Both the position numbers and the translations under genes were made by a program. The notes below the pieces were generated by a model. That model was not told where the DNA came from and searched no databases. It was given only the letters and a program-made list of their open reading frames with translations. This document shows, one piece after another, positions 10,446 through 13,648 of a stretch of DNA of 64,000 nt. Positions within the stretch are counted from its first letter, which is position 1. Every line of letters begins with the position of its first letter. The DNA is from Escherichia coli (GTDB lineage: Bacteria > Pseudomonadota > Gammaproteobacteria > Enterobacterales > Enterobacteriaceae): the NCBI RefSeq assembly GCF_003018115.1, contig NZ_CP027457.1, one strand, 5' to 3'.

Positions 10446-10463
10446 GTTTGATATAGTGCCTTT

Positions 10464-10500
10464 GCCGGATAATATAAAAAGTTATCCGGCAAATTATTTT
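10464..10500 (+). terminator. Intrinsic terminator after yggM (shared convergent junction with TRAP operon)
   Basis: Hairpin gccggataa-N9-ttatccggc followed by T-rich tract. Confidence 0.6.
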
Positions 10501-11802
10501 TTACATTAGCCCTAGTAGCTGTGGAATGAACAAGGATATTTGCGGAATGTAAGTGATCATCATCAACGCTACTAGCAATGCAGCATAAAATGGCAGCAAT
10601 GGTTTGATTAAATGTTGAATCTTCACACCCGAGATAGAACAACCAACAAATAGCGCACTACCCACCGGCGGTGTTAACAGCCCAATACAAAGGTTGGCCA
10701 CCATCATAATACCGAAATGTACTGGGTCCATTCCCAGCTCTTGTGCAATCGGCAAGAAGATCGGTGTAAAGATTAGTACAGCCGGTGTCATGTCCATAAA
10801 GATGCCGACAATTAATAAGACGATATTAATCAGCAGCAATATGATCAGTGGGTTATCAGAAATCCCCATCAATGCGTCGCTGATCATATAAGGAATATCA
10901 GCATTAGTCATTGCCCAGGACATGCCCACGGAAAAACCGATCAACAGTAATACAATCGAAGTGGTAACAACCGACTCCAGAATCAGTTTGGGTAAATGGC
11001 GCCATTTTACTTCCCGGTAAATCAGCACCGAGAGAATAAATGTGTAGACAACGGCAATTGCTGACGCTTCAGTTGCGGTAAAAATGCCGCCCAGAATGCC
11101 GCCCATCACAATGAACACCAGAAGCAAACTTGGTAAGGCATCCAGAAACGCTTTACAGGACTGAGCAAAGGTTGCTCTTTCTGAAAGCGGGTAGCCACGG
11201 CGTTTAGCAATAATGCCGCAGACTATCATTACCGCAAGACCCATTAAGATCCCTGGCAAATATCCCGCCATAAATAGCGATGCTACAGAAACGCCGCCAG
11301 CTGTCAGGGAAAACACAATTAACACGTTTGAGGGCGGTATCAGTAATCCAGTAATACAAGATGAGACGTTTACAGCGGTAGAAAATGCCGGATCATAACC
11401 TTGTTTGGTCTGAATGGGATTCAGTGTGCCACCAACGGCAGCAGCTGCCGCAACGGCTGAACCAGAAATGGAACCAAACATCATATTCGCCAGGACGTTC
11501 ACATGACCAAGTGAACCAGGAACCCGACCAACCATTACCTGGGCGAGGTTAATCAAACGTATCGCAATACCGCCGCTGTTCATCAGCGTTCCGGCAAAGA
11601 TGAAAAAGGGGATTGCCAATAGGGCAAAGTTATCCAGTCCATTAGCCAGTCGCTGCGAAACAGTGATTGCCGCGATATCCCAGGGAAACATCAAAAGCAT
11701 TGAAGCTACAGTGGCAATACCGATTGAGAACGAAATGGGCATACCAATAAAGACCAACACAAAAAAACAGCCAAACAGTGTAATCGCGATATAACTATCC
11801 AT
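10501..11802 (-). CDS. TRAP transporter large permease (DctM family)
   Basis: 433 aa polytopic membrane protein with DctM-type sequence; not present at this locus in K-12 as I recall. Confidence 0.88.
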   Translation of the reverse strand: MDSYIAITLFGCFFVLVFIGMPISFSIGIATVASMLLMFPWDIAAITVSQRLANGLDNFALLAIPFFIFAGTLMNSGGIAIRLINLAQVMVGRVPGSLGHVNVLANMMFGSISGSAVAAAAAVGGTLNPIQTKQGYDPAFSTAVNVSSCITGLLIPPSNVLIVFSLTAGGVSVASLFMAGYLPGILMGLAVMIVCGIIAKRRGYPLSERATFAQSCKAFLDALPSLLLVFIVMGGILGGIFTATEASAIAVVYTFILSVLIYREVKWRHLPKLILESVVTTSIVLLLIGFSVGMSWAMTNADIPYMISDALMGISDNPLIILLLINIVLLIVGIFMDMTPAVLIFTPIFLPIAQELGMDPVHFGIMMVANLCIGLLTPPVGSALFVGCSISGVKIQHLIKPLLPFYAALLVALMMITYIPQISLFIPQLLGLM

Positions 11803-12314
11803 TAACTGGCCTCCTGCGCATGTTGTTTCAGTTGTTGAATGCTTTGATTAATAAAACACAAGGCATAAAACATCATCACCAATCCACTTAATGGCAGAAT
11901 GATATATACGTATCCCATCGGTATTTGCATCGCGGCAGATACCTGTGATGTTGCCAGCGTTTTATCAATTAATTTCAGGCCACCAGTCACAATGACCGAA
12001 CCGGCAAAACCTAAAATAAGAACGTTAATGACTATACTAAGAAGTAATTGCTTGCGCTTATTCAGGGCGAGAGCAAATAAATCGATAGAGAGATGTCTCT
12101 GCGCGCCGACGGTATATGCAGCACCTAATAACCCTACCCAGATCATCAAAAATCGTGCCAGCTCATCGGTTAATGTACTTGGCTGGTTAAGTACGTAGCG
12201 GCTAAATACTTGCCAGACTACGCATACAACCAGAGCAAGCATGACGGCGACAGAAAACGCGGCAATGACGCGGTCTACCGCAAGTTTCAGGCGGTTAAAT
12301 ATCATTGTAAGCAT
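11802..12314 (-). CDS. TRAP transporter small permease (DctQ family)
   Basis: 170 aa, 4 predicted TM segments; stop overlaps the dctM-like start by 1 nt. Confidence 0.82.
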   Translation of the reverse strand: MLTMIFNRLKLAVDRVIAAFSVAVMLALVVCVVWQVFSRYVLNQPSTLTDELARFLMIWVGLLGAAYTVGAQRHLSIDLFALALNKRKQLLLSIVINVLILGFAGSVIVTGGLKLIDKTLATSQVSAAMQIPMGYVYIILPLSGLVMMFYALCFINQSIQQLKQHAQEAS

Positions 12315-12349
12315 CCTGGAAAATCAGGGCCAGAGACTGGCCCGGAATA

Positions 12350-13336
12350 TTATTGAGCAGCGTTGTCGAACTTCTCTAACAAAGCAGCTTGTTTTGGATC
12401 TTTTTTGAAGTCGTCAAACAGAGGCTGAACTGCGGCACGGAATGGTGCTTTATCCACTTTTACAATTTCACCCCCCATAGCTTTCGCCTGAGCACGTGTG
12501 TCAGCGTCAATTTTTTCCCACAATTTTTGTTGATAAGCTTCGGATTTCTTCGCTGCTGTTTCGAGGATTTGTTGCTGTTCTGGGGTTAATTTATTCCATG
12601 TTTTGGTGGAGATAACCAAAAAGTCAGGAATTGAGGCGTGTTCATCTTCAGAAAAAACTTTGGCAATTTCAATATGTCGAGTCTGCACCCAGGAAGGCAC
12701 GTTATTTTCTGCGCCATCTACTACACCTTGCTGCATCGCAGTATAAACTTCGCCAAATGAAATTGGAGTGGGTGAACCACCCATCAGTTCAATCATTTTG
12801 ATGGTGGTCGGACTTGGCTGAACACGAATTTTCAGCCCTTTAAGATCTTCTGGCTTAGTAATCGGTTTTTTCGCATAGAAACTGCGTGTACCCGCTACAT
12901 AAGCTGATAAAGCAAAAAAGCCTTTGTCTTTTGTTGAGTCCATAATTTCTTTACCAACTTCACCAAAAACAACTTTGTTGAAGTGAGCCTGATCTTTAAA
13001 TAAGAACGGCAAATTATAGATAGCATAAATATTATCAAAAGACTCCAGATCACTGGCGGAACCTTTGGTCATATCCAGAGCGCCATTTTGCAACAACTCC
13101 ATAGTTTCTCGCGCATTACCCATCTGGCTGCTGGGATAAATACGGATCACCATATTACCTTTTGACATCTGTTTTACCTCTTTCGCCAGCTCTTCAAAAC
13201 TCTGATGTACAACATGACTTCTTTCCAGGTTGTGTGCTAACTTTAACGTCACTTTTTCTGCGGCGTTTACGCCAGTGCTAACCAGAGCCAGCAAGGATGC
13301 GCAGACTAATGAGCGGGTAAATGACCTCATTTTCAT
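12350..13336 (-). CDS. TRAP transporter periplasmic solute-binding protein (DctP family)
   Basis: 328 aa, signal peptide (LLALVSTGVNAA), DctP-family sequence. Confidence 0.88.
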   Translation of the reverse strand: MKMRSFTRSLVCASLLALVSTGVNAAEKVTLKLAHNLERSHVVHQSFEELAKEVKQMSKGNMVIRIYPSSQMGNARETMELLQNGALDMTKGSASDLESFDNIYAIYNLPFLFKDQAHFNKVVFGEVGKEIMDSTKDKGFFALSAYVAGTRSFYAKKPITKPEDLKGLKIRVQPSPTTIKMIELMGGSPTPISFGEVYTAMQQGVVDGAENNVPSWVQTRHIEIAKVFSEDEHASIPDFLVISTKTWNKLTPEQQQILETAAKKSEAYQQKLWEKIDADTRAQAKAMGGEIVKVDKAPFRAAVQPLFDDFKKDPKQAALLEKFDNAAQ

Positions 13337-13648
13337 AAAAAAACTCCCTGTTGAAGGATGGAAATTGGTTGATATCTAATTGTGCTTATCAGTGCTTTGT
13401 GCGACAAATTGGTTAACCTGTCTGACAACTTGTCTATGTTTATCACAACTTGAAATAAAGTCAGAAATTAAATATTAAATTTGTGCGCCAGGTTGTACAT
13501 GTTTATAATCAATAAATGACGAGTAAATATTCACTATATATATATAATAAATATCGTCGATATTTATTCAGTAAGAAATATATTTTGCCGAAGTTAATTA
13601 ACGGGGGGGGGGAAGAAGTGATTAATGCGCCCGCAGACGCATTAATGA
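13337..13648 (-). promoter_or_regulatory. AT-rich leader/promoter region of the TRAP operon with (TA)6, G10 homopolymer and 9-bp inverted repeat
   Basis: tatatatatata at 13535-13546; ten consecutive G at 13603-13612; attaatgcg-N8-cgcattaat at 13621-13646. Confidence 0.45.

What the first reader, a model, noticed from the sequence alone, without database searches (positions are those of the whole stretch)
10446..13648. TRAP transporter operon (dctPQM-like) inserted directly downstream of hemW
Three minus-strand genes (solute-binding protein, small permease, large permease) lie between hemW and yggM, which are adjacent in K-12 (b2955/b2956) as I recall. The operon is co-oriented with the yggS-yggT-yggU-rdgB-hemW unit and its coding sequence looks more AT-rich by eye than the surrounding core genes, suggesting horizontal origin. 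The substrate is unknown; TRAP systems typically import organic acids.
Basis: partly seen in the sequence, partly recalled or inferred. Interest (0 to 1): 0.5.

Follow-up and report, generated by a model that had tools for sequence, protein, structure and literature searches.

The report
Accessory hexuronate-type TRAP transporter operon
This is an intact three-gene TRAP uptake system, most likely for sugar acids such as galacturonate or glucuronate, that is old at this chromosomal spot in enteric bacteria and was lost from K-12 and most other E. coli rather than inserted here.

Summary
Three minus-strand genes, dctP (12350-13336), dctQ (11802-12305) and dctM (10501-11802), lie between hemW and yggM. 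They are AT-richer than the flanks and are absent from K-12.

The interpretation that the operon was inserted and of horizontal origin is not supported as stated. The same operon sits directly after hemW in Salmonella, Citrobacter, Klebsiella, Kluyvera, Pseudocitrobacter and Phytobacter. It is as diverged as the flanking core genes, is under strong purifying selection (dN/dS 0.03-0.11), and has no mobility genes or flanking repeats.

In E. coli it is a presence/absence polymorphism:
- About 27% of 5,426 complete genomes carry it, including ST131, SE15, O103:H2 and O111:H8.
- Empty sites carry REP elements instead.
- The two states are linked to two synonymous haplotypes of the last 48 nt of hemW.

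The substrate is probably a hexuronate:
- The nearest solved structures are glucuronate/galacturonate-binding TRAP proteins (36-39% identity).
- The closest non-syntenic relatives sit between uxaCBA and exuR, in the position of exuT.
- A conserved promoter motif also marks the K-12 uxaB and exuT/uxaC promoters.

No experiment on this operon was found. It is an ordinary but uncharacterised new member of a known kind.

The parts
12350..13336 (-). dctP-type periplasmic solute-binding protein, 328 aa. It has a Sec signal peptide (MKMRSFTRSLVCASLLALVSTGVNA|AEK) and the carboxylate-clamp Arg171.
   Evidence: Pfam DctP and TIGR00787. AlphaFold model pLDDT 94.7. The top 17 PDB fold matches are all EFI TRAP binding proteins of one sequence cluster, four of which are documented hexuronate binders in papers read here. 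R151 and R171 are invariant in a 93-sequence alignment.
11802..12305 (-). dctQ small membrane subunit, 167 aa by the RefSeq start. An in-frame ATG at 12314 would give 170 aa.
   Evidence: Pfam DctQ E 3.5e-30. RefSeq annotation of the identical genome.
10501..11802 (-). dctM large membrane subunit, 433 aa. Its start overlaps the dctQ stop (ATGA), which suggests translational coupling.
   Evidence: Pfam DctM E 1e-120 and TIGR00786 at 472 bits. Junction sequence.
13416..13431 (-). Box 1, AAGTTGTCAGACAGGT: a GntR/FadR-type palindromic operator, putatively bound by ExuR.
   Evidence: Conserved upstream of dctP in all genera examined. A PWM built from the non-E. coli copies scores at least 15 bits at only 5 of 244,000 positions tested. 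Those positions are K-12 uxaB upstream, the K-12 exuT/uxaC intergenic site and this site.
13394..13410 (-). Box 2, AATTTGTCGCACAAAGC: a second TTGT-N3-ACAA palindrome, starting 21 nt downstream of the Box 1 palindrome.
   Evidence: Aligned with the conserved ATATGTCATACAGAAA box of other genera. Invariant across E. coli lineages.
13360..13377 (-). Box 3, AGATATCAACCAATTTCC: a third conserved box just upstream of the ribosome-binding site. It resembles the K-12 uxaC-proximal sequence ATCACACCAATTTCC.
   Evidence: The similarity to the K-12 site is by eye only and is not statistically tested.
13432..13447 (-). A conserved TGTGA-N6-TAGAC element, a possible CRP half-site.
   Evidence: TGTGA is conserved in nearly all genera. 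The assignment to CRP is inference only.
12327..12343 (-). GC-rich hairpin with a T-rich tail between dctP and dctQ. It may act as an intra-operon attenuator that gives more binding protein than membrane subunits.
   Evidence: Terminator-like scan. The function is inferred.
10461..10493 (+). A 13-bp-stem hairpin with T runs on both sides: a bidirectional terminator shared by yggM and dctM.
13649..13696 (-). The last 48 nt of hemW in the AT-rich synonymous haplotype, which travels with the operon.
   Evidence: There are 14 synonymous differences from operon-less genomes and the protein is identical. The sequence is identical in B1 and B2 carriers. It is found in 1,486 genomes, against 1,493 genomes with operon DNA.
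13603..13612 (-). C10 homopolymer tract that varies in length between strains. It lies in the hemW-dctP spacer upstream of the regulatory boxes.
   Evidence: C10, C15, C19 or interrupted tracts occur in otherwise near-identical alleles.

Best explanation
This is a functional tripartite ATP-independent periplasmic (TRAP) importer.

How it most likely works:
- The secreted DctP-type protein captures an organic acid in the periplasm through the conserved arginine clamp (Arg171, with Arg151 and Asn211).
- It delivers the acid to the DctQ/DctM membrane complex, which moves it inward using an ion gradient. This last step follows from established knowledge of the TRAP family.
- The most likely substrate is a hexuronate, D-galacturonate and/or D-glucuronate. 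That would make this a second, binding-protein-dependent hexuronate route alongside the MFS carrier ExuT.
- The operon has its own promoter in the 130 bp upstream of dctP. That region carries three conserved GntR/FadR-type boxes, which I infer are bound by the hexuronate repressor ExuR, and a possible CRP half-site.

Evolution:
- The operon is an old resident directly downstream of hemW in the Escherichia-Salmonella-Citrobacter-Klebsiella-Kluyvera clade.
- About 73% of sequenced E. coli, K-12 and O157:H7 among them, have lost it or had it replaced by REP elements.
- ST131, SE15, O103:H2, O111:H8 and this ETEC strain keep it.

Shown here: gene family, intactness, synteny, distribution, selection, and the shared promoter motif. 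Inferred: the substrate, the regulator and the energy coupling.
For: Family: full-length Pfam and NCBIfam matches. A high-confidence model. All of the top 17 PDB fold matches and the top 9 sequence matches are EFI TRAP binding proteins of one cluster. Of these, 4MHF/4MIJ (glucuronate and galacturonate), 4N91 (glucuronate), 4N8Y (galacturonate) and 4X8R (glucuronate) are documented in PMC7660916 and PMC11668362.

Genomic context of the nearest relatives that are not syntenic with hemW:
- In Aeromonas and Pantoea sp. IMH (binding protein 60% identical, DctM 74%), the operon lies between uxaC-uxaB-uxaA and exuR. UxaA is 78%, UxaB 71% and ExuR 74% identical to the K-12 proteins. UxuB and UxuR are only 24% and 46% identical. 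This is the K-12 uxaCA/exuT-exuR layout with the TRAP operon in place of exuT.
- A 53%-identical relative lies in gntR-dctPQM-uxaA-uxaB-uxaC.
- A 52%-identical relative lies next to a mannitol-dehydrogenase-family gene.

Regulation:
- The boxes upstream of dctP are conserved across genera and are nearly invariant within E. coli, although the rest of the spacer diverges to 87% identity.
- The Box 1 PWM, built without any E. coli sequence, scores at least 15 bits at five positions in 122 kb. These are uxaB upstream (24.0 and 18.7 bits), the exuT/uxaC intergenic site (15.9) and this promoter (16.3 and 15.1). None of 200 shuffles reached 24.
- The motif is absent from the uxuAB, dgo and lgo regions.
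- It is present at 20.0 bits between gntR and dctP in the distant uxa-linked locus.

Ancestry:
- Synteny holds in Salmonella, 5 Citrobacter, 7 Kluyvera, 7 Klebsiella, Pseudocitrobacter and Phytobacter, and in Pluralibacter with ansB in between.
- Amino-acid identity to Salmonella is 0.90/0.80/0.95, against 0.88-0.94 for the flanks. dS is about 2 or more, against 0.95-1.5 for the flanks.
- Within-E. coli divergence is like that of hemW and yggM.
- dN/dS is 0.03-0.11.
- The operon is intact in 1,460 genomes.
Against: - No experiment on this operon was found.
- Identity to ligand-bound hexuronate binders is only 36-39%.
- The position matching the ligand-contacting Glu74 of STM3169 (GSEKD in 4OVR, 4N15 and 4MHF) is Ala75 here (GNARE) and Pro in the Aeromonas/Pantoea relatives. 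Gln36 of STM3169 corresponds to Leu37 here. The pocket is therefore not identical and the ligand could be a different uronate or a keto-uronate.
- In E. coli no catabolic gene is adjacent.
- Single-site comparisons with K-12 operators are within chance, at 15 of 20 matches. The exuT hit of the PWM is only at about the 95th percentile of the 14-kb shuffle maxima.
- That the K-12 sites are bound by ExuR rests on my recollection of the ExuR regulon, not on a tool result.
- In Mangrovibacter the neighbour is an alginate-lyase/heparinase-like gene, which hints at other uronates.
- The sharp haplotype break inside hemW shows that simple in-place deletion is not the whole history.
Confidence: 0.62

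Rival explanations
1. One reading: a recently and horizontally acquired genomic islet, inserted between hemW and yggM in some E. coli, with unknown substrate.
For: - Low GC and GC3 relative to the flanks.
- Patchy distribution in E. coli, at 27% of genomes.
- The compositionally atypical block extends 48 nt into hemW, uses rare Leu codons, and is in linkage with presence of the operon. This is what a homologous-recombination import from a lower-GC relative would leave.
- Both states occur on near-identical flanks within B1 and within B2.
Against: - The operon occupies the same site in at least 8 genera.
- Its inter-genus divergence equals or exceeds that of the flanks, and identity ranks follow hemW identity.
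- Within E. coli the alleles differ by 2-5%, like the flanks, so residence is old.
- There are no mobility genes, no tRNA and no flanking repeats.
- The operon is also GC-poorer than its flanks in Salmonella, Klebsiella and Kluyvera, so low GC is a property of the operon and not evidence of recent arrival.
Confidence: 0.12
2. A TRAP importer for a different organic acid: a C4-dicarboxylate (DctP-like), sialic acid (SiaP-like), 2,3-diketo-L-gulonate (YiaMNO-like), a keto-uronate such as fructuronate or tagaturonate, or an unsaturated uronate from alginate or pectin breakdown.
For: - The pocket differs from the hexuronate binders at Ala75 and Leu37.
- The Mangrovibacter orthologue (81% identical) lies next to an alginate-lyase/heparinase II/III-like gene.
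- E. coli already has ExuT for aldohexuronates and GntP for fructuronate.
- Automatic names in other annotations call it a C4-dicarboxylate or sialic acid TRAP transporter.
Against: - True DctP, SiaP and YiaO-type proteins are far more distant. PDB DctP and SiaP chains are 26-30% identical and rank below all the EFI hexuronate-cluster chains. The NCBIfam YiaM and YiaN equivalogs score 37 against a cut-off of 260, and 295 against 800.
- There are no nan, dcu or yia genes nearby.
- Three independent relatives are embedded in uxaA/uxaB/uxaC clusters.
- The promoter motif is shared with uxaB and exuT/uxaC but not with the uxuAB, dgo or lgo regions.
Confidence: 0.22
3. A decaying remnant: a non-functional operon on its way out of E. 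coli.
For: - It has been lost from about 73% of genomes.
- Occasional IS1 disruption and a partial deletion are seen (H89 and H90).
- Its codon usage is atypical.
Against: - dN/dS is 0.03-0.11 for all three genes, both within E. coli and between genera.
- Full-length intact genes are annotated in 1,460 genomes, with no pseudogene flags in the 60 rows sampled.
- The regulatory region is nearly invariant.
Confidence: 0.04

Closest known systems
EFI hexuronate-binding TRAP binding proteins (Vetting et al. 2015 cluster): Bpro_3107 (4MHF/4MIJ), Apre_1383 (4N91), BBta_0128 (4N8Y), Rsph17029_2138 (4X8R), Bamb_6123 (4N15/4LN5), Xanthobacter (4OVR)
   Same: - Same fold: TM 0.87-0.89 and rmsd 1.2-1.3 A to the model.
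- Best sequence matches in the PDB, E 1e-59 to 3e-68.
- Conserved Arg151, Arg171, Asn211 and His35-Asn36, the last pair as in Bpro_3107.
   Different: - Only 36-39% identical.
- The Glu of the GSEKD/E loop is Ala75 (GNARE).
- FYDSGARS is AYVAGTRS here.
- The Pro-Glu before strand 238 is Pro-Asp.
- No ligand data exist for this subfamily.
- That 4OVR and 4N15 hold galacturonate or glucuronate is from my memory; the PDB titles returned were truncated before the ligand.
STM3169-STM3171 of Salmonella Typhimurium (D-glucuronate TRAP transporter, Kd about 0.2 uM; Herman et al. 2020, PMC7660916)
   Same: - An enterobacterial DctPQM operon with no adjacent catabolic genes.
- Proposed to act as a high-affinity partner of ExuT.
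- Arg150, Arg170, Asn210, Asn35 and Asp237 have counterparts here: R151, R171, N211, N36 and D238.
   Different: - A different chromosomal locus, not next to hemW.
- It is a paralogous subfamily if, as I recall but did not test, Citrobacter koseri CKO_04899 (4X04/4NG7) is its orthologue. That chain is a weaker match (E 1e-51, 30-31% identity) than the proteobacterial hexuronate binders.
- Gln36 and Glu74 are not conserved here.
- The STM3169 sequence itself was not available to align. The residue correspondence assumes a +1 offset.
ExuT (E. coli MFS hexuronate carrier) within the exuT-exuR / uxaCA locus
   Same: - In Aeromonas and Pantoea sp. IMH the TRAP operon occupies exactly the exuT position, between uxaC and exuR.
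- A Box 1-like palindrome is shared with the exuT/uxaC intergenic region.
   Different: - An unrelated protein family and mechanism: a single-component MFS symporter against a binding-protein-dependent TRAP system.
- ExuT is core in E. coli, whereas this operon is accessory.
YiaMNO (the only TRAP system of E. coli K-12; 2,3-diketo-L-gulonate)
   Same: Same three-component architecture and the same Pfam families.
   Different: The NCBIfam equivalog models for YiaM and YiaN are matched far below their cut-offs. The locus and gene context are different.

Membership tests
TRAP transporter (DctPQM type) | Periplasmic family-7 (DctP) solute-binding protein with a signal peptide | tested here: met
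   PF03480 at 286 bits over profile positions 2-285 of 286. TIGR00787 at 286 bits against a cut-off of 175. The N-terminal signal sequence ends in VNA|A.
TRAP transporter (DctPQM type) | Separate small (DctQ) and large (DctM) membrane subunits encoded next to the binding protein | tested here: met
   PF04290 at 105 bits. PF06808 at 403 bits over profile positions 1-413 of 413. TIGR00786 at 472 bits against a cut-off of 268. The Q stop and M start overlap.
TRAP transporter (DctPQM type) | Conserved arginine that binds the substrate carboxylate | tested here: met
   R171 and R151 are invariant in the 93-sequence alignment. They correspond to Arg170 and Arg150 of STM3169.
TRAP transporter (DctPQM type) | ATP-independent, ion-gradient-driven uptake | not testable with these tools
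   No ATPase gene lies in the operon. Energy coupling needs transport assays.
Hexuronate-specific TRAP binding proteins | Demonstrated binding of D-glucuronate and/or D-galacturonate | not testable with these tools
   Needs purified protein. Only homology (36-39%) and fold similarity are available.
Hexuronate-specific TRAP binding proteins | Ligand-contact residues of the solved or modelled complexes (STM3169 numbering: N35, Q36, E74, R150, R170, N210, D237) | tested here: inconclusive
   Five of seven are kept (N36, R151, R171, N211, D238). Q36 is replaced by L37 and E74 by A75. The correspondence is inferred through 4MHF, 4OVR and 4N15, not through an STM3169 alignment.
Hexuronate-specific TRAP binding proteins | Genomic association with hexuronate catabolic genes (uxaC, uxaA/uxaB, uxuA/uxuB) | tested here: met
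   This is not so in E. coli itself. It is so in the nearest non-syntenic relatives at 60%, 53% and 52% identity.
ExuR regulon | Operator of the type found at exuT/uxaCA and uxaB upstream of the operon | tested here: met
   The Box 1 PWM scores at least 15 bits only at uxaB upstream, at the exuT/uxaC intergenic site and at this promoter in 122 kb. That ExuR is the protein bound there is established knowledge recalled from memory, not a tool result.
ExuR regulon | Derepression by hexuronates or by exuR deletion | not testable with these tools
   Needs expression experiments.
Horizontally acquired genomic island | Mobility genes, tRNA or att-like flanking repeats, and absence from the same site in related genera | tested here: not met
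   There are no such genes or repeats. The same site is occupied in at least 8 genera.

The most novel reading that the evidence does not exclude
The hemW-proximal TRAP operon is an ancient two-haplotype presence/absence polymorphism, kept in E. coli by niche-dependent selection and moved between phylogroups by homologous recombination with a fixed breakpoint 48 nt inside hemW. Under this reading the carrier haplotype gives lineages such as ST131 and the O103/O111 EHEC strains a high-affinity, ExuR-controlled route for scavenging host-derived glucuronate or dietary galacturonate. That route would measurably affect gut or urinary-tract colonisation.
Probability: 0.2. Interest if true: 0.5.

Novelty: new member of a known kind. 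Interest (0 to 1): 0.3.

Why it matters
Hexuronates, glucuronate freed from host glucuronides and galacturonate from dietary pectin, are carbon sources that shape enterobacterial gut colonisation. The related Salmonella system STM3169 has been tied to intramacrophage survival (PMC7660916).

A second, probably high-affinity hexuronate importer is present in about a quarter of E. coli, including pandemic ST131, and absent from the laboratory and O157 reference strains. It is therefore a cheap, testable candidate for strain-specific metabolic fitness.

The finding also corrects a common inference error. Absence from K-12 plus low GC here marks an ancestral locus lost by K-12, not an island gained by this strain. 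Beyond that, the system is ordinary.

Tried and rejected
- Literature searches for this locus (hemW/yggM plus TRAP; TRAP plus galacturonate plus ExuR; TRAP plus phylogroup) found no study of it. The BEN2908 paper and an amoeba-grazing paper only list TRAP genes without locus detail.
- The Suvorova et al. 2011 hexuronate-regulon paper (PMC3147527) is not held. Operator identities therefore rest on K-12 sequence plus my memory.
- Whole-operator Hamming comparison with six K-12 sites and one Pantoea site gave 14-15 matches of 20, no better than shuffles. I dropped it in favour of phylogenetic footprinting and a PWM.
- PWMs for Box 2 and for the combined Box 1 and Box 2 core were not discriminating.
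- The sigma-70 consensus scan gave no more promoter-like hits than shuffles and none in the conserved 130 bp. The -35 and -10 elements are not assigned.
- The Rfam scan of 10300-13800 found nothing real.
- The repeat search found no boundary repeats.
- PDB entry titles were truncated before the ligand name, and supplementary tables with ligands were not held. Ligands of 4OVR, 4N15, 4PF8, 4OVQ, 4P1L, 4XFE and 4X04 are therefore from memory only.
- The STM3169 sequence could not be retrieved.
That scan returned no hit in them.

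
Full report
OBSERVATION. The window holds three co-oriented minus-strand ORFs between hemW (13649-14785) and yggM (9438-10445): a 328-aa protein at 12350-13336, a 167/170-aa protein at 11802-12305/12314, and a 433-aa protein at 10501-11802. They match Pfam DctP, DctQ and DctM end to end and the NCBIfam TRAP subfamily models above cut-off. The YiaM and YiaN equivalog models score far below cut-off. GC is 0.40-0.48 in the operon against 0.51-0.57 in hemW-yggS, and GC3 is 0.39-0.48 against 0.48-0.64. The window is 100% identical here to the ETEC isolate L7_E1373, where RefSeq calls the genes generic TRAP subunits. 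In K-12-like genomes hemW and yggM are 154 bp apart.

IS IT AN INSERTION? No.
- The binding protein has 84-93% identical counterparts throughout the Enterobacteriaceae.
- In Salmonella enterica, Klebsiella variicola and Kluyvera georgiana the gene lies directly after hemW.
- A scan of one genome per species, followed by tblastn of the flanking proteins, shows the order yggS-yggT-yggU-rdgB-hemW | dctPQM | (yggM/ansB)-yggN-yggL. This order holds in an Escherichia cryptic-clade genome, five Citrobacter, Pseudocitrobacter, seven Kluyvera, seven Klebsiella, Phytobacter and two unnamed enterobacteria, and in Pluralibacter with ansB in between.
- Amino-acid identity of the three proteins to Salmonella (0.90/0.80/0.95) equals that of the flanks (0.88-0.94). 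Four-fold-site identity is lower than in the flanks (0.30-0.44 against 0.47-0.51), and dS is about 2 or more against 0.95-1.5. There has been no recent inter-genus transfer.
- The operon is GC-poorer than its flanks in the other genera too.
- There are no mobility genes, no tRNA and no boundary repeats.

WITHIN E. COLI.
- 1,460 of 5,426 complete genomes carry at least 80% of the operon, always as a single copy at this locus.
- The alleles fall into three groups. About 500 genomes are at least 99% identical to the window, including O103:H2 12009, O111:H8 and ETEC strains. About 875 are at 97.5-98%. About 50 are at 95.3%, including SE15.
- The ST131 reference strain JJ1886 carries the operon, with the same three proteins as the 97.7% strain AZ153.
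- Per-gene identity of SE15 and AZ153 to the window (94.7-98.8%) is like that of hemW (94.5-94.7%) and yggM (96.5-97.5%).
- dN/dS is 0.03-0.11. One genome has an IS1 disruption and one has a remnant.
- Empty sites carry one, two or three REP units, giving spacers of 64, 154 and 242 bp.
- Both states occur on near-identical flanks. MP1 (empty) shares its AnsB and RdgB proteins with SE15 (carrier). fEC.1 (empty) shares its HemW and YggM proteins with B1 carriers.

AN UNEXPECTED DETAIL. The boundary on the hemW side lies inside the gene.
- The last 48 nt of hemW exist as two haplotypes that differ at 14 synonymous sites and encode the same peptide.
- The four carriers examined, from B1 and B2, are identical to one another there. 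So are three of the four empty genomes examined; the fourth, MP1, differs at one base. This holds although the rest of hemW differs by 9-13 nt per 100 between phylogroups.
- The AT-rich type is found in 1,486 genomes, against 1,493 with any operon DNA. The GC-rich type is found in 3,553 genomes.
- The cryptic-clade Escherichia genome is a mosaic of the two types.
- One of the two haplotypes therefore spread by homologous recombination. I cannot say which one is the import.

SUBSTRATE.
- The nine best PDB sequence matches and the top 17 fold matches of a pLDDT-94.7 model are all EFI TRAP binding proteins of one cluster.
- Papers I read confirm glucuronate and/or galacturonate binding for 4MHF, 4N91, 4N8Y and 4X8R.
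- Identity is modest at 36-39%.
- The carboxylate-clamp residues R151, R171 and N211, and also N36 and D238, are kept. The loop Glu (GSEKD) is Ala75 here, and Gln36 of STM3169 is Leu37.

Genome context is the stronger evidence.
- In Aeromonas rivuli, A. molluscorum and Pantoea sp. IMH (binding protein 60% identical, DctM 74%), the operon is divergent from uxaC-uxaB-uxaA and is followed by a GntR/FCD regulator.
- The Pantoea proteins are 78%, 71% and 74% identical to K-12 UxaA, UxaB and ExuR. They are only 24% identical to UxuB and 46% to UxuR.
- This reproduces the K-12 uxaCA/exuT-exuR locus with the TRAP system in place of ExuT.
- A 53%-identical relative lies in gntR-dctPQM-uxaA-uxaB-uxaC. 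A 52%-identical relative follows a mannitol-dehydrogenase-family gene.

REGULATION.
- Aligning the 150 nt upstream of dctP from 29 taxa shows a conserved TGTGA and three boxes: AAGaTGTCnGACAAC, ATATGTCATACAGAAA and AGATATnnACCAAt.
- In E. coli these lie at 13416-13431, 13394-13410 and 13360-13377. They are nearly invariant, even in SE15, whose spacer is otherwise only 87% identical.
- I scanned a PWM of Box 1, built only from non-E. coli sequences, over five K-12 loci plus the window (122 kb). It scores at least 15 bits at five positions. These are 221-236 nt upstream of uxaB (24.0 and 18.7 bits), the exuT/uxaC intergenic palindrome (15.9), and the window's own site (16.3 and 15.1).
- No shuffle of 200 reached 24 bits. 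The uxuAB, dgo and lgo regions have nothing above 9.5 bits.
- The motif recurs at 20.0 bits between gntR and dctP in the distant uxa-linked locus.
- Since exuT, uxaCA and uxaB are the classical ExuR targets (established knowledge, recalled), I infer ExuR control.
- Weaker tests failed, and no -35/-10 pair could be assigned.
- A hairpin between dctP and dctQ, and a bidirectional terminator after dctM, complete the unit.
- The hairpin after hemW has no T run, so read-through from hemW cannot be excluded.

COMPARISON AND VERDICT. The system works like, and by family tests is, a DctPQM TRAP importer. It most resembles the hexuronate-binding subfamily and the Salmonella STM3169-71 glucuronate system. 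It is a separate lineage with an altered pocket and no biochemical data. It is annotated generically in RefSeq, and I found no study of it.
- Novelty: a new member of a known kind.
- Interest: modest.
The substrate can be narrowed, with about 0.6 confidence, to galacturonate and/or glucuronate under ExuR control.

Noticed in passing
window 13603-13612 (minus-strand sense): A homopolymeric C tract lies just after the hemW post-stop hairpin and varies between near-identical alleles. It is C10 here, C15 in strain S21 and C19 in GZ2408C. It is interrupted in O103:H2 12009 (C7TC5) and EC554 (C6TC7). It is short or absent in the B2 alleles. This is either slipped-strand hypervariability or homopolymer sequencing error.
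   Followed up: partly
window 13649-13696 (3' end of hemW): Two synonymous haplotypes, differing at 14 of 48 nt and encoding an identical peptide, are linked to operon presence or absence across phylogroups. About 387 genomes match neither at megablast sensitivity, and a cryptic-clade Escherichia genome is a mosaic of the two. The origin is unexplained.
   Followed up: partly
window 9438-10445 (yggM): yggM is itself AT-rich (GC 0.445) and evolves unusually fast. It is 64% identical in amino acids to Salmonella and 30-38% to Kluyvera, Klebsiella and Phytobacter, and no match was found in several genera. Neighbouring genes are 72-95% identical.
   Followed up: no
L062:6902-6917 (K-12 NC_000913.3 1610901-1610916): A near-perfect copy of the TRAP-promoter Box 1 motif (AAGATGTCAGACAACT, 24.0 of a possible 24.9 bits) overlaps the dgcF stop codon, 221-236 nt upstream of uxaB. 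It may be a distal operator of the hexuronate regulon.
   Followed up: partly
L002:4047-4200, L059:2547-2788, L060:2547-2610: Operon-less E. coli carry one, two or three REP/BIME-like units in the hemW-yggM spacer. MP1 has 64 bp, K-12-like genomes 154 bp and O157-like genomes 242 bp.
   Followed up: partly
L040 (Edwardsiella hoshinae), L041/L043/L045 (Mangrovibacter): Orthologues at 81% (binding protein) and 88-91% (DctM) identity lie outside the hemW context. Their neighbours are a LysR regulator and a GH1 glycosidase in Edwardsiella, and an alginate-lyase/heparinase II/III-like gene in Mangrovibacter. The high DctM identity in Edwardsiella suggests transfer out of the Enterobacteriaceae.
   Followed up: no
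window 13535-13546: A (TA)6 run in the hemW-dctP spacer is 4 nt shorter in O103:H2 12009.
   Followed up: no
L011, L012, L050: Short contigs labelled as Collinsella, Bacillota and Alicyclobacillaceae MAGs or genomes carry 99-100% identical copies of the E. coli binding-protein gene. One also carries hemW at 97% amino-acid identity. This is almost certainly E. coli contamination or mis-binning in those assemblies.
   Followed up: no
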